A stretch of DNA of 64,000 nt, from the NCBI GenBank assembly GCA_943788365.1, contig CALSPZ010000001.1, positions 1,070,572 through 1,134,571 on the forward strand, read 5' to 3'. A model generated the notes under the pieces. The model was not told the origin of the DNA, ran no database searches, and saw only the letters and a list, made by a program, of their open reading frames with translations. A program made the translations under genes and the position numbers. Each line of letters begins with the position of its first letter. Position 1 is the stretch's first letter. Below are positions 4,838 to 35,880 of this stretch, piece by piece. The DNA is from an uncultured SAR86 cluster bacterium. GTDB lineage: Bacteria; Pseudomonadota; Gammaproteobacteria; Magnimaribacterales; D2472.

Positions 4838-6219
4838 TGAAAAATTTAAATATACTTCCGTTTTTTATAGTCTTCTCACTAGTTTCATCTTTATTTGCAC
4901 AAGATGATATTGTTGTTGAAGAGCCTACAACTGTTGAAGCTTTGCTTTCTTTGGTTAAGGAAGGAAAAACAAGAGAACAGTCTGAAAATGCAGAAAGAGA
5001 AAAGAAGTTTCTTTCAAATAAGAATAAACAGGCTTCTATTTTAGCTGCAGAAAAAAGAGAATTAGCAAGACAAGAAAAAATTGCTGATAAGCTCGAAGCA
5101 GATTACAAAAGAAATGAAGAAACTCTAAGGGTAAAGGAAGAGGCATATAAAAAAGAATTAGGTTCATTGGTAGAATTATTTGGACATCTTCAAAGCTCGG
5201 CTGGAGAGGCTGCAGTTCAGTTTGGGGGCTCCCTTACTTCTGCACAATATGGAGCCGAAAGAGTTGCATTCCTTAATGATTTAACAGGAAAAATGTCAGA
5301 GACGACCGAATTGCCTACTATTAGAGAAATAGAAGGTCTATGGTATGAATTACAAAGAGAAATGGTCGCAAGTGGTCAAGTTGTAAGCTTTAACACTATG
5401 GTAAGTGATACTGACGGAACGTCTTCAGAATGCAATGTTGTTAGAGTAGGTCTATTTAATGCAGTATGTGATGGCAAATATCTCGAGTATTCCGTTACAA
5501 AAGGGCAGTATGCTTTTTTGCCTAGACAGCCAGCAGGTAGATTTACAAAAACAGCTAAAAACATAGCCGCATCATCAGGTGAGCAAGTTAAGTTTGGTAT
5601 TGATCCTACAGGCCCTACTGGAGGCAGTCTATTAGCCAACCTAATACAAACTCCTTCATTGGTTGAGAGAGCTCAACAGGGAAGAGAAGTGGGGTATGCG
5701 ATTATCGCAGTTGGTACTATCGGTATACTTATAGCCATATATAAACTTATTGAGCTTGCAGGTGTAGCCAAAGCTGTAAGAAGTCAAGCAAATTCAAAGG
5801 CTGCTGACTCAAGGAATCCACTAGGAAGAGTCTTAAAGGTAGGCCAAGATAATTTTGAGAAAGATATTGATACATTAGAGTTAAAACTTGCAGAAGCAAT
5901 AATGGCTGAGAGACCAGCTATTGAAAGATGGATTGGCGCAGTTAGAATTATTTCTGTTGTAGCTCCACTAGCAGGTTTACTAGGAACGGTAACTGGTATG
6001 ATCGTTACTTTCCAAATGATTACATTATACGGAACAGGAGATCCTAAGCTTATGGCTGGTGGTATCTCACAAGCTCTCGTTACAACAGTTCTTGGTTTGT
6101 TAGTTGCAATACCGACTACTCTTCTTCATTCTTTCACAGCATCTTCTGCTAGAGGAATAATAAGTACATTAGAAGAGCAGAGTACAGGTATTTTGGCTGA
6201 GCATTCTGAAGCTAAGTAG
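4837..6219 (+). CDS. Large MotA/TolQ/ExbB-family proton-channel protein (TtpC-like)
   Basis: 460 aa. It has a signal/coiled-coil N-terminal region and a C-terminal MotA_ExbB core (APLAGLLGTVTGMIVTFQ...MAGGISQALVTTVLGLLVAIP). A 1-nt TAATG overlap joins it to the upstream gene. Confidence 0.8.
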   Translation: MKNLNILPFFIVFSLVSSLFAQDDIVVEEPTTVEALLSLVKEGKTREQSENAEREKKFLSNKNKQASILAAEKRELARQEKIADKLEADYKRNEETLRVKEEAYKKELGSLVELFGHLQSSAGEAAVQFGGSLTSAQYGAERVAFLNDLTGKMSETTELPTIREIEGLWYELQREMVASGQVVSFNTMVSDTDGTSSECNVVRVGLFNAVCDGKYLEYSVTKGQYAFLPRQPAGRFTKTAKNIAASSGEQVKFGIDPTGPTGGSLLANLIQTPSLVERAQQGREVGYAIIAVGTIGILIAIYKLIELAGVAKAVRSQANSKAADSRNPLGRVLKVGQDNFEKDIDTLELKLAEAIMAERPAIERWIGAVRIISVVAPLAGLLGTVTGMIVTFQMITLYGTGDPKLMAGGISQALVTTVLGLLVAIPTTLLHSFTASSARGIISTLEEQSTGILAEHSEAK

Positions 6220-6227
6220 TTATTAAT

Positions 6228-6758
6228 ATGCCATATGCACTTGTAGAAGCACTCTCGTCCATAAGAGACTTTATGGAAGCTGGTGGAAGCGTGCTATGGC
6301 TAATTGCTATTTTGGTTTTCTTTATGTGGGGGATGATCTTTGAGAGAATATGGTATTTTTCTCATGGACATAACATTTATGTCAAAAGCCTTTCTGAAAA
6401 GTGGAACTCACGAAAAGACAAGACCTCTTGGCATGCATTACAGATTAGAGAAAAACTAATATCTGAAGCAAAAATACAAATTAATAAAAATATGACCATG
6501 ATTCAAACGTGCGTAATGCTTGCACCACTTTTTGGTCTTCTAGGAACAGTTACTGGAATGATAGAAGTATTTCAAGTAATGGCTTTTAATGGGGGTGGTG
6601 ATGCTAGGGCTATGGCCGGTGGAGTTTCAAAAGCAACTCTTCCAACTATGGCTGGAATGGTAGTTGCACTTTCTGGAGTCTTTATAAGCATATATCTAAC
6701 AAGTGCTAGTGAAAAACATGAAACAGACCTTAATGAATTAATTAAAAGAGAACTATAG
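6228..6758 (+). CDS. exbB: Biopolymer transport protein ExbB
   Basis: 176 aa with three TM segments and the motif APLFGLLGTVTGMIEVFQ...MAGGVSKATLPTMAGMVVAL. Confidence 0.85.
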   Translation: MPYALVEALSSIRDFMEAGGSVLWLIAILVFFMWGMIFERIWYFSHGHNIYVKSLSEKWNSRKDKTSWHALQIREKLISEAKIQINKNMTMIQTCVMLAPLFGLLGTVTGMIEVFQVMAFNGGGDARAMAGGVSKATLPTMAGMVVALSGVFISIYLTSASEKHETDLNELIKREL

Positions 6759-21822: not shown

Positions 21823-22776
21823 TTAGTTTTGAGCAAATTTATTTGTAGCAGAGACTAGAAGATGCACTATCTCTTTCTCAAAAGCAGAATGCCCTGAATC
21901 CTTTGCTATTTCAAATATAGCTTCAGGCCATCTTCTTGAAACTTCATAAGCTGTTTCCATAGGGCAAACCATGTCATATCTTCCTTGAATGATAACCGCA
22001 GGAATATCTCTTATCTTTTCTATACCATCCAACAACTGTTCTTCGTATTCAAGAAACCCCTTATTTACAAAGTAATGATTTTCTATTAATGCAAATGCAA
22101 GAGCAAAATGAGCGTTAGAGAACTCATCTATAAGACTATCATTTTTTATGAGTTTGCTAGTTGATGCCTCCCATCTGGACCATGCTAGAGCAGCATTTAA
22201 TTTGGCCTCTTCATCAGAGCCATTGAAAATTTCATTGTAAGCTTTCATAAGATTAGATCTTTTATTTTTATCAATAACTTCAATGAATTTTTGCCATTCA
22301 TCAGGAAAGATCTTACTTGCGCCTTCCTGATAGAACCAATCTAGCTCATATTGCTGAAGCATGAATATACCTCTAATTACTATCTCACTTACTGAGGAGG
22401 GGTGTAACTGAGAGTATGCTAAAGCCAATGTTGAGCCCCATGAACCTCCAAATACCATCCACTTATTAATACCAAGCTGCTGCCTTAACTTTTCTATATC
22501 AGACACTAAATCCCATGTTGTATTATTTGTAAGGCATCCATGAGGAGTACTTCTTCCACAACCTCTCTGATCAAAGACCACGATTCTGTAATATTTTGGA
22601 TCAAAAAAACGTCTTACATCTTTACTTCCACCGCCACCTGGCCCGCCGTGAAGAAATACAACAGGTTTACCATTTTTATTACCGCATTCTTCGAAATAAA
22701 TATTATGTTCAGAGCATTTTAAATAGCCTGTATTAAAAGGTTCTATGTGAGGAAAAAGGGATAGCTTATTTGTCAT
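21823..22776 (-). CDS. pip: Proline iminopeptidase
   Basis: VVFLHGGPGGGGS and the nucleophile elbow GGSWGSTLALAY. It has alpha/beta-hydrolase length and the pip-type cap. Confidence 0.9.
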   Translation of the reverse strand: MTNKLSLFPHIEPFNTGYLKCSEHNIYFEECGNKNGKPVVFLHGGPGGGGSKDVRRFFDPKYYRIVVFDQRGCGRSTPHGCLTNNTTWDLVSDIEKLRQQLGINKWMVFGGSWGSTLALAYSQLHPSSVSEIVIRGIFMLQQYELDWFYQEGASKIFPDEWQKFIEVIDKNKRSNLMKAYNEIFNGSDEEAKLNAALAWSRWEASTSKLIKNDSLIDEFSNAHFALAFALIENHYFVNKGFLEYEEQLLDGIEKIRDIPAVIIQGRYDMVCPMETAYEVSRRWPEAIFEIAKDSGHSAFEKEIVHLLVSATNKFAQN

Positions 22777-22821
22777 ATTTAGTAACTTACAAATTAATTA
22801 AAGCTTTTTCAACTATTTATC

Positions 22822-22850
22822 TTTACAAAAATATCATTATCAAGTTTAAT
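22822..22850 (+). promoter_or_regulatory. Sigma-70-like promoter TTTACA-17 nt-TTTAAT for the alkB-like operon
   Basis: Read directly: -35 at 22822-22827 and -10 at 22845-22850. The predicted TSS is near 22857, the first bases of repeat copy A. Confidence 0.4.
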
Positions 22851-22855
22851 ACTGA

Positions 22856-22926
22856 AATCGTAATTTGATCCTATTGCCGCGATATAAAAGAAAGTGCTAA
22901 AACGGTACTACTATTCCATGGATTTA
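22856..22926 (+). repeat. Leader element copy A (~71 nt)
   Basis: AATCGTAATTTGATCCTATTGCCGCGATATAAAAGAAAGTGCTAAAACGG + TACTACTATTCCATGGATTTA. The 50-nt core is identical to copy B except for one base. Confidence 0.8.
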
Positions 22927-22932
22927 ACACTT

Positions 22933-22962
22933 CAAGCTGATTTTATCAGATTTGTTATGTTT
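22933..22962 (+). terminator. Weak terminator/attenuator-like hairpin plus U-run between the two leader elements
   Basis: CAAGCUGAU-UUU-AUCAGAUUG (5+3 bp with one G.A mismatch) followed by UUAUGUUU. It is AT-rich and therefore weak. Confidence 0.3.
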
Positions 22963-22967
22963 CACTT

Positions 22968-23039
22968 AATCGTAATTTGATCCTATTGCCGCGATTTAAA
23001 AGAAAGTGCTAAAACGGAAGATGTATTCCCTAGGATTTA
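22968..23039 (+). repeat. Leader element copy B (~72 nt)
   Basis: AATCGTAATTTGATCCTATTGCCGCGATTTAAAAGAAAGTGCTAAAACGG + AAGATGTATTCCCTAGGATTTA. It lies 112 nt downstream of copy A and ends about a dozen nt before the AAGGAG SD of the alkB-like gene. Confidence 0.8.
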
Positions 23040-23065
23040 TTAATTATTAAGAAGGAGATTTTCTT

Positions 23066-24217
23066 ATGAAGTTTTTTATAAATGCAAGGTACCTAATTGT
23101 TCCAATATCATCTTTAATGACTATCTTTGGGATATTTATTGGCAGCACATATGCCTGGACTGGAGTAATACTGTTTGGCCTATACACCATAATAGATACT
23201 TTAACGAAAGATATTCATCTTAAAGCCGAGATAGATGATGATGGAAACTCATATGGCATTAAGATTTTTCAATATCTTGTTATGTATGTCATGTTGCCAG
23301 TTTTTATTACAATACAAATCATTTTGGCCTGGAGAATCTATCAATACACTTCAGGAGTAATTTTACAGAACTTATCTTTGGGATCAATTGAATATCAGAA
23401 TGGAATATCAGGCATAAATCTCATAGGCGCCGTCATATCATCAGCCTTATGGGCTGGGCTTGGCATTATTTATGGGCATGAATTATCACATAATAAAAAA
23501 GAAGGCTTTTTTGTTTCAAGACTTATCATGGCTTTAAGCGGAGCTTCTCATTTTACATATGCCCATGTATACAATCATCATCTGGATTTAGGTCATGAAG
23601 ATGATCCAGCCACTGCACCGAGAGGGAGAAATGTATATTTACATACATGGCTTTCTCATGCTGGTCAGTCAAAGTTTTCATTTGATATGGAAGCCAAAAA
23701 GCTAAAAAATCAAGGGAAGAGTTTTATAAATAAAGATAATAGATGGCTGCTTGGATATTTTTATAGCTTACCTTCAATATTCCTATTTATTTGGTCTGGG
23801 GGCTTGGTTGGGTTGGTTGCATTGGCAGCAGTTTGGATTTTATCAAACTTTCTTTTAGAGGCTTTAAATTTCATGGGCCATTATGGCTTGATAAGAAAAG
23901 ATGGTGCTGTTGAGCACAGACACTCATGGGACAATGATTCAGTTTTTACAAGCTGGTTTTTTATTGAGATTGGAAGACAGTGTGACCATCATGTCAGAGG
24001 TGAAACTTATTTTTGGGAACTTGATGATGTAGGGGGGCCTAATTATGGAATAGGCTATTTCAGTCTTTTTGTATTGACTCTATACCCTCCATTATTTAGA
24101 AAATTTGTTCACAAACATCTTGATAATTGGGATAAGAACTTCGCAACTGATGAAGAGAGGTTAATAGCAAATAAATTTAATATTGATCAACTAGGCAAGG
24201 CTTCTTTAGTTTCTTAA
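23066..24217 (+). CDS. AlkB/XylM-family integral-membrane di-iron oxygenase (alkane-1-monooxygenase-like, divergent His boxes)
   Basis: His boxes align with P. putida AlkB as I recall it: GHELSHNKK (HELGHK), SHFTYAHVYNHH (GHFFIEHNKGHH), NFMGHYGL (NYIEHYGL), GRQCDHH (LQRHSDHH). N-terminal TM helices are present. Strong SD AAGGAG. Confidence 0.75.
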   Translation: MKFFINARYLIVPISSLMTIFGIFIGSTYAWTGVILFGLYTIIDTLTKDIHLKAEIDDDGNSYGIKIFQYLVMYVMLPVFITIQIILAWRIYQYTSGVILQNLSLGSIEYQNGISGINLIGAVISSALWAGLGIIYGHELSHNKKEGFFVSRLIMALSGASHFTYAHVYNHHLDLGHEDDPATAPRGRNVYLHTWLSHAGQSKFSFDMEAKKLKNQGKSFINKDNRWLLGYFYSLPSIFLFIWSGGLVGLVALAAVWILSNFLLEALNFMGHYGLIRKDGAVEHRHSWDNDSVFTSWFFIEIGRQCDHHVRGETYFWELDDVGGPNYGIGYFSLFVLTLYPPLFRKFVHKHLDNWDKNFATDEERLIANKFNIDQLGKASLVS

Positions 24218-24228
24218 AAGATAATTCA

Positions 24229-24549
24229 ATGTTAAAGATTTTTAAGAAAAATAAAATTCCGAAGAGAGCAGCTCTCCTCCAAAGCAATATTAATTTTGAG
24301 GTATTGCCCAGAACAACTCTGCTTTCTTCGGCCCTATCGAAAGGTATAGATTGGCCACATAGATGCAAGGTAGGCAGTTGCGGAACATGCAAATGTAGAG
24401 TCGTTTCTGGAGAAGTAAAACCCAACATTGATTTTAGTTATACATTAAATCAAGAAGAGATAGATGCAGGATTTGTACTGGCCTGCCAAAGCGAGCTGCT
24501 ATCTGATATAGAAGTAGAAATAAATATTAAAAACAAGGAAAAAAAATGA
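24229..24549 (+). CDS. Plant-type [2Fe-2S] ferredoxin (stand-alone)
   Basis: 106 aa with the cluster motif CKVGSCGTCKC (C-X4-C-X2-C) plus a distal ACQS Cys. It resembles the N-terminal Fdx domain of XylA / oxygenase reductases but lacks an FNR domain. Confidence 0.8.
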   Translation: MLKIFKKNKIPKRAALLQSNINFEVLPRTTLLSSALSKGIDWPHRCKVGSCGTCKCRVVSGEVKPNIDFSYTLNQEEIDAGFVLACQSELLSDIEVEINIKNKEKK

Positions 24550-24749
24550 AAAATTTAAAAGCATTCTCAATCATAGGCTTGATAACAGCATCGGTAGGCA
24601 TTTTATTATATGCTTTTGATGCACACTTAAATTACAGAAATTTATTCTGGGCAATAGGGATATCAACCACTCTTTTAATTACACACATACTAAATATGGC
24701 TGTATATTTTAAAGTTGCTGGCGATCAGCCTTACAAATGGTTTAAATAG
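24546..24749 (+). CDS. Hypothetical small membrane protein (2 TM), third gene of the alkB-like operon
   Basis: 67 aa with two hydrophobic helices. The start overlaps the ferredoxin stop (ATGA). No family recognised. Confidence 0.4.
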   Translation: MKNLKAFSIIGLITASVGILLYAFDAHLNYRNLFWAIGISTTLLITHILNMAVYFKVAGDQPYKWFK

Positions 24750-24757
24750 AAAAAGAA

Positions 24758-24833
24758 TGGTGCCCAGAGGTGGGATCGAACCACCGACACAAGGATTTTC
24801 AATCCTTTGCTCTACCGACTGAGCTATCTGGGC
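24758..24833 (-). tRNA. tRNA-Phe (anticodon GAA), CCA encoded
   Basis: The reverse complement GCCCAGATAGCTCAGTCGGTAGAGCAAAGGATTGAAAATCCTTGTGTCGGTGGTTCGATCCCACCTCTGGGCACCA folds as a cloverleaf. The anticodon loop is TTGAAAA, and the sequence is near-identical to E. coli tRNA-Phe. Confidence 0.95.
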
Positions 24834-24848
24834 ATTAAGTGAAAAGGG

Positions 24849-24877
24849 ATTATAGGAAAGTTTTAAGTTAATGTCAT
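24849..24877 (-). promoter_or_regulatory. Sigma-70 promoter ATGACA-17 nt-TATAAT for tRNA-Phe
   Basis: On the minus strand the -35 is at 24872-24877 and a perfect -10 TATAAT is at 24849-24854. The predicted TSS is about 9 nt upstream of the mature tRNA 5' end. Confidence 0.45.
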
Positions 24878-24906
24878 CAATACATTTATTTAATGTCATT
24901 AATACA

Positions 24907-25176
24907 CTAAGTTAATGCCTTAAATCCCGATGCTTGTTCATAATCCTCATTGTTAAAAAATTTATCCATTTCATCTATTAACCATTTTCTGTCTTTAGCA
25001 TCAGACATATCAAGATGCTTTTCATTTATTAGAGTTGTTTGATGCGATCTCCACTCTTTCCAAGCTTTGTCAGAAACCGTATTCATTAATTCAATTCCTT
25101 TGGGTCCTGGCATTGGAGGTACAGACATAGCATCTAGCTCTTCATTAAATTTTTTACAGAATATTTTTTTTGTCAT
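24907..25176 (-). CDS. yggX: Fe(2+)-trafficking protein YggX
   Basis: 89 aa. MTKKIFCKKFNEELDAMSVPPMPGPKGIELMNTVSDKAWKEW...LINEKHL is the YggX hallmark. The mutY-yggX pairing is conserved. Confidence 0.9.
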   Translation of the reverse strand: MTKKIFCKKFNEELDAMSVPPMPGPKGIELMNTVSDKAWKEWRSHQTTLINEKHLDMSDAKDRKWLIDEMDKFFNNEDYEQASGFKALT

Positions 25177-34456: not shown

Positions 34457-34627
34457 ATGGAATTAAAAAAATGGGAATGCATTGTATGTGGGCTTATCTA
34501 TGATGAGGCCCTGGGTTGGCCCGAAGATGGAATAGAGGCAGGAACAAGATGGGAAGATGTTCCTGAAGATTGGTTATGTCCAGAGTGTGGTGTTGGCAAG
34601 GAAGATTTTGATATGATAGAGATGTAA
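34457..34627 (+). CDS. rubA: Rubredoxin (56 aa; missing from the ORF track, which lists nothing shorter than 60 aa)
   Basis: My own translation reads [56 protein letters not shown]. Both CxxCG knuckles (CIVCG, CPECG) and the conserved W/Y/F core are present. Confidence 0.9.
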
Positions 34628-35880
34628 TGATAGATGCACCAAATAATTTAACTCGCAATATTCTTTTTGGAATGTTTGCTGGTTTTGTTGTCGGCGCTGT
34701 TTTTTACTACACCAATATTTTTGGAGACCAAATCTCACTATTCTTTGAAAAGTATGTTTTCTTATTGGGAAGCACAATATTTATCAATCTACTGAAGATG
34801 CTAATAGTGCCTTTAATTTTCTTTTCCTTAGTTTCAGGCATTTCTTCTCTTAGCAACTTAAATAGTTTAGGAAAGATTACTGCAAAAACTATTGCGCTAT
34901 ATTTATCAACAACTGCAATAGCTGTCACACTTTCTTTGGCTGTAGGATCACTATTCAAGCCAGGAGCTGGCTACAACTCAGAGATATCTATTGCTCCAGA
35001 AAGCCTTCCTCCAAGTCAAGGCGTATTTGAAACAATAGTAAATATATTTCCTTCAAATATTATTCAAGCTATGGCTAATAATGAAATGCTGGCAGTAGTA
35101 TTCTTCAGCATTTTATTTGGCTTAGCATTAAATAAAACAAATCATCTTACTAATAACTTTAGTCAGTCATTTGAAAAGTTAAATACAGTATTCATGCAAC
35201 TTGTAATTACTATAATTTCATTCGCTCCAATTGGTGTTTTTTGCTTGATAGGCAAGTTTGTAATAGTTGACGGTCTTGATGTTTTTCAAGAAGCTTTTAA
35301 ATACGTAATCCTATTAATACTAGTATTAATACTTCATGTTTTCATAACTTACTCTCTTTTATTAAAGCTTCTAACTTCTATAAATTTAAAAACTTTTTTT
35401 ATAAAAATGAAAGATGTTGCAATCTTTGCTTTTTCAACTTCATCAAGCGCAGCAACAATTCCTGTTACTCTTAAAACAGTTCAGAATGACCTTGGAGTAA
35501 ATAAGAATGTGGCTTCATTTGTTGTTCCTGTGGGAGCCACAATAAATATGGATGGAACCGCTATTATGCAAGGCATGGCAACTATATTTATAGCGCAAAT
35601 GTCAGGTATTGATTTAACTTTAATTCAATATGTTCAGGTAATTATTTTAGCAGTCGTAGCATCCATTGGAGCAGCTGCCGTTCCCTCAGCCGGAACAATA
35701 ACCTTGGTTTTAATTCTTCAACAGTTTGGTTTGCCGCTTGAGGCCATAGGCATTATTCTTGCAGTAGATAGAATTCTTGATATGTTAAGAACTTCTGTAA
35801 ATGTTACAGGTGATGCTGCAGTTGCATGTATTGTTGCTGAATCAGAAGGCTTGTTAGACAAGAAAATATTCAATAAATAG
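34627..35880 (+). CDS. Dicarboxylate/amino acid:cation (Na+/H+) symporter, DAACS family
   Basis: 417 aa. It has the SSSAATIP hairpin HP1 motif and VPVGATINMDGTA (NMDGT), as in GltP/GltT-type transporters. Confidence 0.85.
   Translation: MIDAPNNLTRNILFGMFAGFVVGAVFYYTNIFGDQISLFFEKYVFLLGSTIFINLLKMLIVPLIFFSLVSGISSLSNLNSLGKITAKTIALYLSTTAIAVTLSLAVGSLFKPGAGYNSEISIAPESLPPSQGVFETIVNIFPSNIIQAMANNEMLAVVFFSILFGLALNKTNHLTNNFSQSFEKLNTVFMQLVITIISFAPIGVFCLIGKFVIVDGLDVFQEAFKYVILLILVLILHVFITYSLLLKLLTSINLKTFFIKMKDVAIFAFSTSSSAATIPVTLKTVQNDLGVNKNVASFVVPVGATINMDGTAIMQGMATIFIAQMSGIDLTLIQYVQVIILAVVASIGAAAVPSAGTITLVLILQQFGLPLEAIGIILAVDRILDMLRTSVNVTGDAAVACIVAESEGLLDKKIFNK

What the first reader, a model, noticed from the sequence alone, without database searches (positions are those of the whole stretch)
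23066..24749. Divergent AlkB/XylM-type membrane oxygenase teamed with a stand-alone plant-type 2Fe-2S ferredoxin and a 67-aa membrane protein
The 383-aa protein aligns with alkane-1-monooxygenase across all His boxes but deviates at conserved positions, compared with P. putida AlkB as I recall it:
- HELGHK becomes HELSHN.
- EHNKGHH becomes AHVYNHH.
- NYIEHYGL becomes NFMGHYGL.
- In box 3, LQRHSDHH becomes GRQCDHH, so the first His is replaced by Gln.

Canonical AlkB takes electrons from rubredoxin, and XylM from XylA, a ferredoxin fused to an FNR reductase. Here the translationally adjacent partner is only the ferredoxin module (CX4CX2C...C, 106 aa). It is followed by an ATGA-coupled two-TM miniprotein, and no reductase is present. 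The window's only rubredoxin lies 10 kb away, fused into another operon.

Together with the unusual leader, this looks like an uncharacterised three-component variant of the AlkB family whose substrate and electron chain are unknown.
Basis: partly seen in the sequence, partly recalled or inferred. Interest (0 to 1): 0.65.

Follow-up and report, generated by a model that had tools for sequence, protein, structure and literature searches.

The report
SAM-controlled AlkB-like oxygenase, probably DMS-cleaving
A three-gene operon in this SAR86-type marine bacterium encodes an unusual membrane iron oxygenase that is switched by the cell's methionine-status sensor (SAM riboswitches) and probably splits the climate-relevant gas dimethylsulfide to win sulfur for methionine, an enzyme type not described in the papers searched.

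Summary
ORFs 23066-24217 (383 aa), 24229-24549 (106 aa) and 24546-24749 (67 aa) encode an AlkB/XylM-fold membrane diiron protein, a plant-type 2Fe-2S ferredoxin and a two-helix miniprotein. The first His of box 3 is Gln in 239 of 240 family members.

The trio travels together in about 80 loci from several phyla. It forms its own clade outside rubredoxin-dependent AlkB, nearest the ferredoxin-linked XylM group.

New evidence on function:
- The leader holds two SAM-II/V-type aptamers.
- All 55 testable loci at 60% identity or more carry a SAM riboswitch (SAM-II-type or SAM-I/IV).
- The same aptamer core precedes bhmT, mmuM, metH and metY elsewhere.
- metY, which uses methanethiol or sulfide, is adjacent in Acidimicrobiales and Kangiella.
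- A 54%-identical subclade sits in DMS-oxidising Methylophaga next to globin, GST, a ferredoxin-FNR reductase, the miniprotein and a FadL/TodX porin, near methanethiol oxidase.
- Genes annotated the same way are 29- to 136-fold induced on DMS in M. thiooxydans, whose first DMS enzyme is unknown.

Best reading, about 55%: a membrane DMS (methyl-sulfide) C-monooxygenase that yields methanethiol for methionine. This is inferred, not shown biochemically.

The parts
22848..22923 (+). Distal SAM-II/V-type riboswitch aptamer (copy 1 of the tandem leader)
   Evidence: Own covariance model R1 scores 83.2 bits. Rfam SAM_alpha RF00521 scores 22.9 bits, below the gathering score of 36. It shares the core AUCGUAAUUUGAUCCUAUUGCCGCGAU with copy 2.
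22960..23035 (+). Proximal SAM-II/V-type riboswitch aptamer (copy 2), about 30 nt upstream of the ATG
   Evidence: R1 scores 89.9 bits. Rfam RF00521 scores 30.2 bits, E 2.7e-4. In 42 aligned aptamers, P1 plus the pseudoknot pairs are 97.1% paired, against 35-47% when slid, and six pairs show compensatory changes. The same 27-nt core precedes bhmT, mmuM, metH and metY in metagenomes.
23052..23057 (+). Shine-Dalgarno AAGGAG of the oxygenase gene
   Evidence: Read from the sequence. The aptamer loop AUCCUA is complementary both to a conserved downstream UAGGAU and to the SD region. The switching mechanism is not resolved.
23066..24217 (+). 383-aa AlkB/XylM-fold membrane diiron oxygenase, Gln-type box 3 (HELSH, AHVYNHH, HYGL, RQCDHH)
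24229..24549 (+). 106-aa plant-type [2Fe-2S] ferredoxin, the presumed electron donor
   Evidence: PF00111 scores 62 bits. It is 41-47% identical to the Fer2 domain of Fd-FNR reductases in the sister subclade and of XylA. It is co-located with the oxygenase in nearly all loci.
24546..24749 (+). 67-aa two-helix membrane miniprotein, the hallmark third subunit
   Evidence: It has no Pfam or NCBIfam family. It is present in more than 80 loci and gives 71 distinct sequences with the conserved motif LL-x-tH-x-x-N-x-x-x-YFk-x-aG-x-x-Py-x-W.
24758..24833 (-). tRNA-Phe (GAA). It marks the downstream boundary of the operon and is not part of the system.
   Evidence: ARAGORN. Rfam tRNA scores 72.3 bits.

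Best explanation
The operon encodes a three-part membrane monooxygenase: an AlkB/XylM-fold diiron hydroxylase with a Gln in place of one His ligand, a [2Fe-2S] ferredoxin and a 67-aa membrane subunit. Tandem SAM-sensing riboswitches are expected to keep it off when S-adenosylmethionine is plentiful.

Proposed chemistry (inferred). The ferredoxin is reduced by a housekeeping reductase encoded elsewhere and delivers two electrons to the diiron site. The site hydroxylates a methyl C-H of dimethylsulfide or a close methyl-thioether. The hemithioacetal CH3-S-CH2OH then falls apart to methanethiol and formaldehyde.

Physiological role (inferred). Methanethiol is condensed with O-acetylhomoserine by MetY to give methionine. 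That would supply reduced sulfur to SAR86-type cells, which are reported to lack sulfate assimilation.

Shown here: the fold and family, the conserved three-gene module, SAM-riboswitch control, and linkage to metY, mtoX and DMS-degrading Methylophaga.

Not shown: the substrate, the products, the direction of switching and the role of the miniprotein.
For: (1) SAM control.
- Two aptamers lie in the window leader.
- The ortholog in L004 carries a canonical SAM-II aptamer (41.9 bits, above the gathering score of 36) plus a SAM-I/IV aptamer (60.8 bits, above 41.1).
- SAM-I/IV aptamers lie upstream in L039, L040, L041, L059, L061 and L062.
- Model R1 finds the SAM-II-type aptamer directly upstream of the gene in 48 loci and nowhere else in 780 kb.
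- The Acidimicrobiales copies reach Rfam's gathering score (36.6 and 36.7).
- The same 27-nt core precedes BhmT-like (23), MmuM-like (5), MetH (3) and MetY (2) genes, and the alkB-like gene in 38 loci, among 80 metagenome hits.

(2) metY linkage.
- In Acidimicrobiales the order is SAM-I/IV riboswitch, metY, SAM-II aptamer, alkB-like, fd, mini.
- In Kangiella, a SAM-I-controlled metY is the divergent neighbour.
- Both MetY proteins pass NCBIfam cut-offs.

(3) Sister subclade (54% identity, same Gln box).
- It occurs in the DMS oxidisers Methylophaga sulfidovorans and M. thiooxydans DMS010. There it sits with globin, GST, Fd-FNR, the miniprotein and a FadL/TodX porin.
- MtoX methanethiol oxidase lies 8 kb away in DMS010 and directly adjacent in L096.

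(4) Published transcriptome of M. thiooxydans on DMS versus methanol (PMC6548844, Table S6).
- 'Oxidoreductase, NAD-binding domain': 618 vs 12.
- glbN: 601 vs 21.
- The paper states that no dmoA or ddhA is present and that the first DMS enzyme is unidentified.

(5) Outer-membrane channels for hydrophobic molecules follow the operon: OmpW in L004, L017, L023, L026, L028 and L031, and Toluene_X in subclade B.

(6) SAR86 is reported to lack sulfate assimilation (review PMC13360808).
Against: - There is no biochemical evidence for any member.
- Boden et al. 2010, as cited in PMC6548844, detected no DMS monooxygenase activity in M. thiooxydans and proposed a methyltransferase. A labile membrane multi-component enzyme could escape such assays.
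- I could not verify that locus tags MDMS009_226, _61, _199 and _906 are the genes of cluster L101. Only the annotation strings, and the strand for three of them, agree. The strand given for _906 differs. A 'cyanoglobin locus' gene from the paper's supplement is not in L101.
- The SAR86-type subclade lacks the GST, globin and reductase, so its substrate may differ from that of Methylophaga.
- From my own knowledge, classical AlkB S-oxygenates thioethers rather than demethylating them.
- A third subclade (51-55% identity, stand-alone) has neither partners nor a riboswitch.
- The window aptamers score below Rfam's gathering threshold.
Confidence: 0.55

Rival explanations
1. The enzyme and regulation are as above, but the substrate is another organosulfur compound rather than DMS. 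Candidates are methanethiol itself (giving H2S and formaldehyde, with sulfide going through MetY to homocysteine), dimethyl disulfide, 2-(methylthio)ethanol or other MTA-salvage thioethers, or methylmercaptopropionate.
For: SAM riboswitches and metY linkage require only that the product feeds methionine synthesis. MetY-type enzymes accept sulfide as well as methanethiol (NCBIfam names them bifunctional). DMS-grown Methylophaga also contains methanethiol, so induction on DMS does not separate the two substrates. The SAR86-type subclade lacks the GST and globin of the Methylophaga clusters.
Against: Methylophaga already has two strongly induced MtoX enzymes for methanethiol but no known enzyme for DMS. 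Destroying methanethiol when SAM is low would waste a direct methionine precursor. The porins (OmpW, FadL/TodX) suggest uptake of a hydrophobic external substrate.
Confidence: 0.2
2. It is a membrane-lipid desaturase or hydroxylase that remodels lipids under sulfur or methyl-group limitation or under oxidative stress. This is how the authors of the Methylophaga study read it.
For: Pfam places it in FA_desaturase, and NCBI names it 'fatty acid desaturase'. From my own knowledge, a Q-x-x-HH third box is known from front-end lipid desaturases. PMC6548844 proposed a role in lipid homeostasis under H2O2 stress.
Against: The sequence and the model match AlkB specifically, and the nearest relatives are XylM or Fd-FNR-linked hydroxylases in catabolic clusters. 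Clustering with metY, mtoX, a porin for hydrophobic solutes, a GST and a dedicated reductase, together with roughly 100-fold induction on DMS, is not expected for a lipid desaturase.
Confidence: 0.1
3. It is an ordinary alkane or aromatic-methyl hydroxylase, as JGI annotates it ('alkane 1-monooxygenase'), used for hydrocarbon catabolism.
For: It has the AlkB fold and His boxes. JGI's annotation says so. OmpW and FadL neighbours also occur in alkane and toluene clusters.
Against: No alcohol or aldehyde dehydrogenase, rubredoxin or AlkS/XylR-type regulator accompanies it in the SAR86-type loci. No NCBIfam AlkB model matches. It forms a separate clade with an altered metal ligand. Control by SAM riboswitches of two classes, shared with bhmT, metY and metH, has no rationale for hydrocarbon use.
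Confidence: 0.07
4. It S-oxygenates DMS to DMSO (sulfoxidation) rather than cleaving it.
For: From my own knowledge, classical AlkB sulfoxidises methyl thioethers. The DMS induction in Methylophaga would fit.
Against: DMSO does not feed MetY or methionine synthesis, so the SAM riboswitches and metY adjacency would be unexplained. Methylophaga needs methanethiol as the intermediate that its induced MtoX consumes.
Confidence: 0.05

Closest known systems
Xylene monooxygenase XylM/XylA (TOL plasmid pWW0), and AlkB-like hydroxylases fused or adjacent to Fd-FNR reductases (Polaromonas pPNAP01 fusion, Hydrocarboniclastica plasmid)
   Same: Both are membrane diiron hydroxylases of the FA_desaturase/AlkB fold. 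Electrons arrive from a plant-type 2Fe-2S ferredoxin module. The subclade-B reductase is 41.6% identical to XylA. These are the nearest branches in the NJ tree, and the alignment covers 95% of the length.
   Different: Identity is only 25-33%. The first His of box 3 is Gln. There is an extra conserved 67-aa membrane subunit. In SAR86-type loci the reductase domain is missing. No downstream alcohol or aldehyde dehydrogenases are present. Regulation is by SAM riboswitches.
Alkane 1-monooxygenase AlkB with rubredoxin AlkG (solved structures 8f6t and 8sbb)
   Same: The fold is the same (TM 0.72 and 0.69). Eight of the nine His ligands and all four motif blocks are shared.
   Different: Identity is about 20-28%. 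The electron partner is a ferredoxin, not a rubredoxin. The protein lies outside the canonical clade, and no NCBIfam AlkB model matches. One ligand is Gln.
DMS monooxygenase DmoA/DmoB (Hyphomicrobium; flavin-dependent, LuxA-like)
   Same: The proposed overall reaction is the same: DMS + O2 + reductant gives methanethiol + formaldehyde.
   Different: The protein family, cofactor (FMNH2 versus diiron) and location (soluble versus membrane) are unrelated. dmoA is absent from Methylophaga. This is a functional analogy only.
SAM-II / SAM-V riboswitches of marine bacteria (Pelagibacter bhmT, mmuM, metY leaders)
   Same: The conserved core (GAUUUG...UUGC...GCUAAA) and the H-type pseudoknot are shared. 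The same 27-nt core occurs upstream of bhmT, mmuM, metY and metH genes. Tandem arrangements are known in Pelagibacter (PMC5069961).
   Different: Here the aptamers control an oxygenase operon rather than a methionine-biosynthesis gene. The window copies score below the RF00521 gathering threshold. A conserved extra hairpin and a distal AGGAU strand follow the core.

Membership tests
AlkB/XylM-type membrane diiron hydroxylases (FA_desaturase superfamily, PF00487) | Match to PF00487 above the gathering score | tested here: met
   74.1 bits against a cut-off of 29.7.
AlkB/XylM-type membrane diiron hydroxylases (FA_desaturase superfamily, PF00487) | AlkB three-dimensional fold | tested here: met
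   The AF2 model (pLDDT 71, pTM 0.78) matches 8f6t at TM 0.72 and 8sbb at TM 0.69. There are no other significant PDB matches.
Canonical alkane 1-monooxygenase AlkB | Nine conserved His ligands (HxxxH, HxxxHH, an H in NYxEHYG, HxxHH) | tested here: not met
   Eight are conserved. The first His of the last box is Gln305. This Gln is present in 239 of 240 family members.
Canonical alkane 1-monooxygenase AlkB | Rubredoxin as the dedicated electron partner, and placement inside the AlkB clade or a curated AlkB model | tested here: not met
   The adjacent partner is a Fer2 ferredoxin. No NCBIfam family matches. The NJ tree places the family outside the rubredoxin-linked AlkBs.
Xylene monooxygenase XylMA | Hydroxylase paired with a Fer2-FNR reductase (XylA type) | tested here: inconclusive
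   The sister subclade has a 363-aa Fer2-FAD_binding_6-NAD_binding_1 protein, 41.6% identical to XylA. The window operon keeps only the Fer2 module. The hydroxylase is 25% identical to XylM and forms a separate, fully supported clade.
Plant-type [2Fe-2S] ferredoxin (PF00111) | Fer2 domain above threshold with the C-x4-C-x2-C...C ligand pattern | tested here: met
   62.2 bits against a cut-off of 21. The ligands are C46, C51, C54 and C86.
SAM-II / SAM-V riboswitch | Score at or above the Rfam gathering threshold (RF00521, 36 bits) | tested here: inconclusive
   The window copies score 30.2 and 22.9 bits. Orthologous leaders score 36.6 and 36.7 (L042, L054), and the distal aptamer of L004 scores 41.9.
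SAM-II / SAM-V riboswitch | P1 helix plus H-type pseudoknot supported by covariation | tested here: met
   97.1% of cells are paired, against 35-47% for slid controls. Six pairs show compensatory changes, and 0 of 500 shuffles reach the observed covariation score.
SAM-II / SAM-V riboswitch | Located in leaders of methionine/SAM-metabolism genes | tested here: met
   The same core lies upstream of BhmT-like, MmuM-like, MetH and MetY genes. It is interchangeable with SAM-I/IV aptamers in orthologous leaders.
SAM-II / SAM-V riboswitch | Binds S-adenosylmethionine and represses expression | not testable with these tools
   This needs in-line probing or ITC and reporter assays. Folding of the expression platform was uninformative.
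DMS monooxygenase (functional class) | Catalyses DMS + O2 + 2e- to methanethiol + formaldehyde | not testable with these tools
   Only contextual evidence is available.

The most novel reading that the evidence does not exclude
This Gln-box AlkB-like family, together with its ferredoxin and 67-aa subunit, is the missing DMS-demethylating monooxygenase of the sea. It would be the unidentified first enzyme of DMS degradation in Methylophaga. In its SAM-riboswitch-controlled form it would be the route by which abundant sulfate-assimilation-deficient bacterioplankton (SAR86, SAR92/Porticoccaceae, marine Acidimicrobiales, OCS116, Marinimicrobia) turn DMS into methanethiol and methionine. That would make it a large, unrecognised biological sink for DMS.
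Probability: 0.5. Interest if true: 0.92.

Novelty: new variant of a known kind. Interest (0 to 1): 0.85.

Why it matters
DMS is the main biogenic sulfur gas emitted by the ocean, and bacterial consumption removes most of it before it escapes. The known DMS-consuming enzymes are DmoA, DdhA, Tmm and DsoB.

The first enzyme of DMS degradation in the model organisms Methylophaga thiooxydans and M. sulfidovorans has stayed unidentified. SAR86 is reported to lack sulfate assimilation, and no route from DMS to methionine is on record for it in the papers searched.

If this family is a DMS-cleaving oxygenase, several things follow:
- It would give a gene marker found in at least 268 species-level genomes and in over a thousand 90%-identity protein clusters from marine metagenomes.
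- It would add a new reaction type and a new metal-ligand variant to AlkB enzymology.
- It would widen the known SAM-riboswitch regulon from methionine biosynthesis to oxidative sulfur scavenging.

Cultured hosts (Kangiella, Methylophaga) make the idea directly testable.

Tried and rejected
- I looked for a reductase or rubredoxin in the operon. There is none; the only rubredoxin motif is at 34478-34588.
- The promoter/terminator scan of 22700-24950 gave counts close to the shuffled expectation and no convincing sites in the leader.
- RNA folding of 22990-23075 gave z = 0.84, so the expression platform stays unresolved. Python pairing analysis showed that the aptamer loop AUCCUA can pair with a conserved distal UAGGAU or with the SD region, but it cannot say which state SAM favours.
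- I tried to map MDMS009_226, _61 and _199 to the L101 genes through the paper's supplements. No accession numbers or sequences are given for them, and a 'cyanoglobin locus' gene (MDMS009_1795) is not within L101.
- I tested whether the cassette is a phage auxiliary gene. 200 IMG/VR contigs carry a 51-55% relative, but on the one contig whose neighbours gave informative matches these are cellular housekeeping genes (hemB, hemE, prs, an aminotransferase). No ferredoxin, miniprotein or riboswitch accompanies the gene, so I rejected this as support for viral carriage.
- MtoX adjacency is not general. Within the 4-kb flanks searched it was found only in L096 and L097, and 8 kb away in DMS010.
- Literature searches linking SAM riboswitches, AlkB or desaturases and DMS returned nothing beyond PMC6548844.
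Full report
**1. Observation**

The first two are separated by 11 nt, and the last two overlap as ATGA. A tRNA-Phe on the minus strand (24758-24833) closes the unit.

Family matches:
- The 383-aa protein scores 74 bits on PF00487 FA_desaturase.
- The 106-aa protein scores 62 bits on PF00111 Fer2.
- The 67-aa protein matches nothing.
- No curated NCBIfam family, including any AlkB model, matches the 383-aa protein.

Against solved structures the only sequence matches are the two Fontimonas AlkB entries, 8sbb (E 5e-24) and 8f6t. In that alignment the query motifs line up as follows:

| Query motif | Residues | AlkB motif |
|---|---|---|
| HELSH | 138-142 | HELGHK |
| AHVYNHH | 166-172 | EHNKGHH |
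| NFMGHYGL | 268-275 | NYIEHYGL |
| GRQCDHH | 303-309 | LQRHSDHH |

Gln305 therefore occupies the position of a His ligand, and this is not a misalignment. An AlphaFold2 model built on a 30-sequence alignment (pLDDT 71, pTM 0.78) matches only AlkB structures, with TM 0.72 and 0.69. The only rubredoxin motif in the window is at 34478-34588.

**2. A distinct, conserved family**

The protein has 1212 relatives among 90%-identity clusters, nearly all from marine metagenomes. In the 50%-identity representative library only one full-length cluster lies near it (53% identity, also RQ-DHH). Everything else falls to 27-37% identity and keeps RH(S/A)xHH.

A neighbour-joining tree gives three results:
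- The Gln-box family is monophyletic in 40 of 40 bootstraps.
- It lies outside the rubredoxin-linked AlkBs of Rhodococcus, Methylibium and Marinobacter.
- It sits among ferredoxin-linked relatives, namely XylM of pWW0, the Polaromonas Fd-FNR::hydroxylase fusion and a Hydrocarboniclastica gene next to a XylA-like reductase.

Gln is present in 239 of 240 family proteins.

A scan of one genome per GTDB species found 268 stretches encoding a relative. They come from SAR86, Porticoccaceae/HTCC2207, Woeseiaceae, cultured Kangiella, OCS116, Rhodobiaceae, marine Acidimicrobiales, Marinimicrobia, Methylophaga and Thiotrichales. Proteins 70-75% identical occur in different phyla, which suggests lateral spread.

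**3. Conserved partners**

tblastn shows the ferredoxin and the miniprotein beside the oxygenase in nearly every locus. This holds even where the surrounding genome is unrelated, as in L004, which has arg genes upstream and OmpW downstream.

The miniprotein gives 71 distinct sequences with two hydrophobic helices. Its conserved C-terminal motif is LL-x-tH-x-x-N-x-x-x-YFk-x-aG-x-x-Py-x-W. In three loci it is encoded upstream of the oxygenase instead.

In the more distant subclade (54-61% identity) the module is enlarged:
- a truncated haemoglobin;
- a small Fer4_19 protein;
- one to three GST-like genes;
- the ferredoxin as the N-terminal domain of a 363-aa Fer2-FAD-NAD reductase, 41.6% identical to XylA;
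- the miniprotein and a FadL/TodX porin downstream;
- a divergent CbbQ/NorQ-type AAA protein plus a VWA protein upstream.

The SAR86-type stand-alone ferredoxin is thus a reductase that has lost its FNR half. Its reductant must be encoded elsewhere (inference).

**4. The leader is a tandem SAM riboswitch**

Rfam reports two sub-threshold SAM-II (RF00521) matches at 22847-22921 (22.9 bits) and 22959-23033 (30.2 bits; gathering score 36).

Comparative evidence shows they are real:
- The 78%-identical ortholog in L004 has a canonical SAM-II aptamer (41.9 bits), a terminator-like hairpin and then a SAM-I/IV aptamer (60.8 bits).
- SAM-I/IV aptamers above threshold precede the operon in L039, L040, L041, L059, L061 and L062.
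- An alignment of 42 leader aptamers has an almost invariant core.
- P1 plus the pseudoknot pairs form in 97.1% of cells, against 35-47% in slid controls. Six pairs carry compensatory changes, and no shuffle reaches the observed covariation.
- A covariance model built from this alignment finds the element in 48 loci plus the window. It always lies just upstream of the oxygenase gene, and nowhere else in 780 kb.
- The Acidimicrobiales versions reach Rfam's gathering score.

Counting both aptamer classes, all 55 testable loci of the group at 60% identity or more carry a SAM riboswitch. L050 has no upstream DNA, and L063 was not scanned. None was found in the Methylophaga-type subclade.

A scan of metagenome contigs for the 27-nt core returned 80 loci. 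What follows the aptamer in each:

| Downstream of the aptamer | Loci |
|---|---|
| alkB-like gene | 38 |
| BhmT-like gene | 23 |
| MmuM-like gene | 5 |
| MetH | 3 |
| MetY | 2 |
| Unknown small secreted protein | 3 |
| No ORF called | 3 |
| Contig cut | 3 |

The methionine genes are the classes that carry biochemically validated SAM-V/SAM-II riboswitches in Pelagibacter (PMC5069961). The ligand is therefore almost certainly SAM, and the oxygenase operon belongs to the methionine/SAM regulon.

The direction (off at high SAM) is inferred from the family and from the co-regulated biosynthetic genes. I could not resolve the expression platform.

**5. Links to methanethiol and DMS**

- In marine Acidimicrobiales the gene order is SAM-I/IV riboswitch, metY, SAM-II aptamer, oxygenase, ferredoxin, miniprotein.
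- In Kangiella a SAM-I-controlled metY is the divergent neighbour.
- Both MetY proteins pass NCBIfam cut-offs for O-acetylhomoserine sulfhydrylase. By established knowledge this enzyme makes methionine from methanethiol, or homocysteine from sulfide.
- The sister subclade occurs in the genomes of Methylophaga sulfidovorans and M. thiooxydans DMS010 (protein EEF81234.1/C0N2A0, 'Fatty acid desaturase domain protein').
- Methanethiol oxidase MtoX lies 8 kb upstream in DMS010 and directly adjacent in L096. Both score above the NCBIfam equivalog cut-off.
- Kröber and Schäfer (PMC6548844) report that these two DMS-oxidising species lack dmoA and ddhA and that the primary DMS enzyme is unidentified.

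Their Table S6 lists, among the most DMS-induced transcripts:

| Annotation in Table S6 | DMS | Methanol |
|---|---|---|
[quoted passage not shown] | glbN | 601 | 21 |

Four genes of the L101 cluster carry matching annotations. The authors read the desaturase as a lipid-repair enzyme. I could not verify the locus-tag mapping, so this link is strong but circumstantial.

**6. Proposed mechanism**

- Shown: an AlkB-fold diiron protein with an altered ligand, a dedicated 2Fe-2S ferredoxin, a conserved small membrane subunit, SAM-riboswitch control, and neighbourhood with metY, mtoX and hydrophobic-solute porins.
- Inferred: the enzyme hydroxylates a methyl group of DMS or a similar methyl thioether. 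The hemithioacetal decomposes to methanethiol and formaldehyde. MetY converts methanethiol to methionine. In SAR86, reported to lack sulfate assimilation, the operon is de-repressed when SAM falls. In methylotrophs the same chemistry feeds carbon and energy metabolism through MtoX.
- The Gln ligand, the miniprotein, the globins, the GSTs and the CbbQ/VWA pair have no assigned role. Metal-site tuning, docking, O2 or sulfide handling and metal insertion are speculation.

**7. Rivals**

- Another organosulfur substrate with the same physiological logic (about 0.2).
- A lipid desaturase or hydroxylase (about 0.1).
- A conventional hydrocarbon hydroxylase (about 0.07).
- DMS sulfoxidation to DMSO (about 0.05).

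The last three leave the SAM regulation and the metY linkage unexplained.

Evidence against the favoured reading:
- There is no biochemistry for any member.
- A reported failure to detect DMS monooxygenase activity in M. thiooxydans extracts.
- The reduced gene set of the SAR86-type operon.
- A third, stand-alone subclade without partners or riboswitch.

**8. Novelty**

The protein belongs to a known superfamily, and its nearest analogues are XylMA-type systems. It differs in its Gln-box clade, its obligatory miniprotein, its riboswitch control and its predicted reaction. Nine full-text searches found no paper connecting these elements. I rate it a new variant of a known kind. Interest is high because it makes the identity of a marine DMS-consuming enzyme directly testable in cultured Kangiella and Methylophaga.

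Noticed in passing
L104-L183 (IMG/VR contigs), e.g. L161 5995-7059: A third subclade of the Gln-box oxygenase (about 351-377 aa, 51-55% identity, IGRQ[AG]DHH) is found on 200 contigs labelled viral. No ferredoxin, miniprotein or SAM riboswitch lies nearby. In L161 the neighbours are cellular housekeeping genes (hemB, hemE, PRPP synthetase, an aminotransferase), so the viral label looks doubtful.
   Followed up: partly
L218, L247 and L254 (metagenome contigs), first ORF downstream of the aptamer: The same SAM-II/V aptamer core precedes a roughly 120-aa secreted or membrane protein (signal peptide, SYHGG..GGYGGS, one hydrophobic helix) with no Pfam family. It is an unexplained member of the marine SAM regulon.
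   Followed up: partly
L092 3616-6514 (-), L101 5781-8590 (-), and L067-L077: A CbbQ/NorQ-type AAA protein and a roughly 690-aa VWA protein lie divergently next to the oxygenase in 13 Methylophaga-type loci. By analogy with NorQ/NorD they might load iron into the diiron site.
   Followed up: no
L092 8061-8423 and 12041-12523; L062 5202-5561: One or two truncated haemoglobins (Bac_globin) are encoded inside the enlarged clusters. In Rhodobiaceae one sits between the oxygenase and the ferredoxin under a SAM-I/IV riboswitch. Their role (O2 delivery or sulfide binding) is unknown.
   Followed up: no
L066, L073, L076 (all on OX044353.1): One gammaproteobacterial MAG chromosome carries three copies of the family at different positions. 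L066 has no ferredoxin or miniprotein nearby.
   Followed up: no
L095 8001-9179: This member (75% identical to the M. sulfidovorans protein) sits alone inside an LPS/glycosyltransferase gene cluster without any partner genes.
   Followed up: no
window 22985-23060 and all aligned leaders: The aptamer loop AUCCUA is complementary both to a conserved UAGGAU/CAGGAU 14-20 nt after GCUAAAACGG and to the Shine-Dalgarno region. Between them lies a covarying small hairpin (GGAA...UUCC). The architecture is longer than the Rfam SAM-II model, and the switching logic is unresolved.
   Followed up: partly
window 34478-34588 (+): A rubredoxin-type motif (CIVCG...CPEC) lies just upstream of ORF 34627-35880. 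It is the only one found in the window and is unrelated to this operon.
   Followed up: no
L004 7851-8525; L017, L023, L026, L028, L031 at about 5800-6500: An OmpW-family outer-membrane protein follows the miniprotein gene in SAR86- and Porticoccaceae-type loci. By my own knowledge this is the family of the alkane importer AlkL. It is absent from the window, where a tRNA-Phe follows instead.
   Followed up: partly
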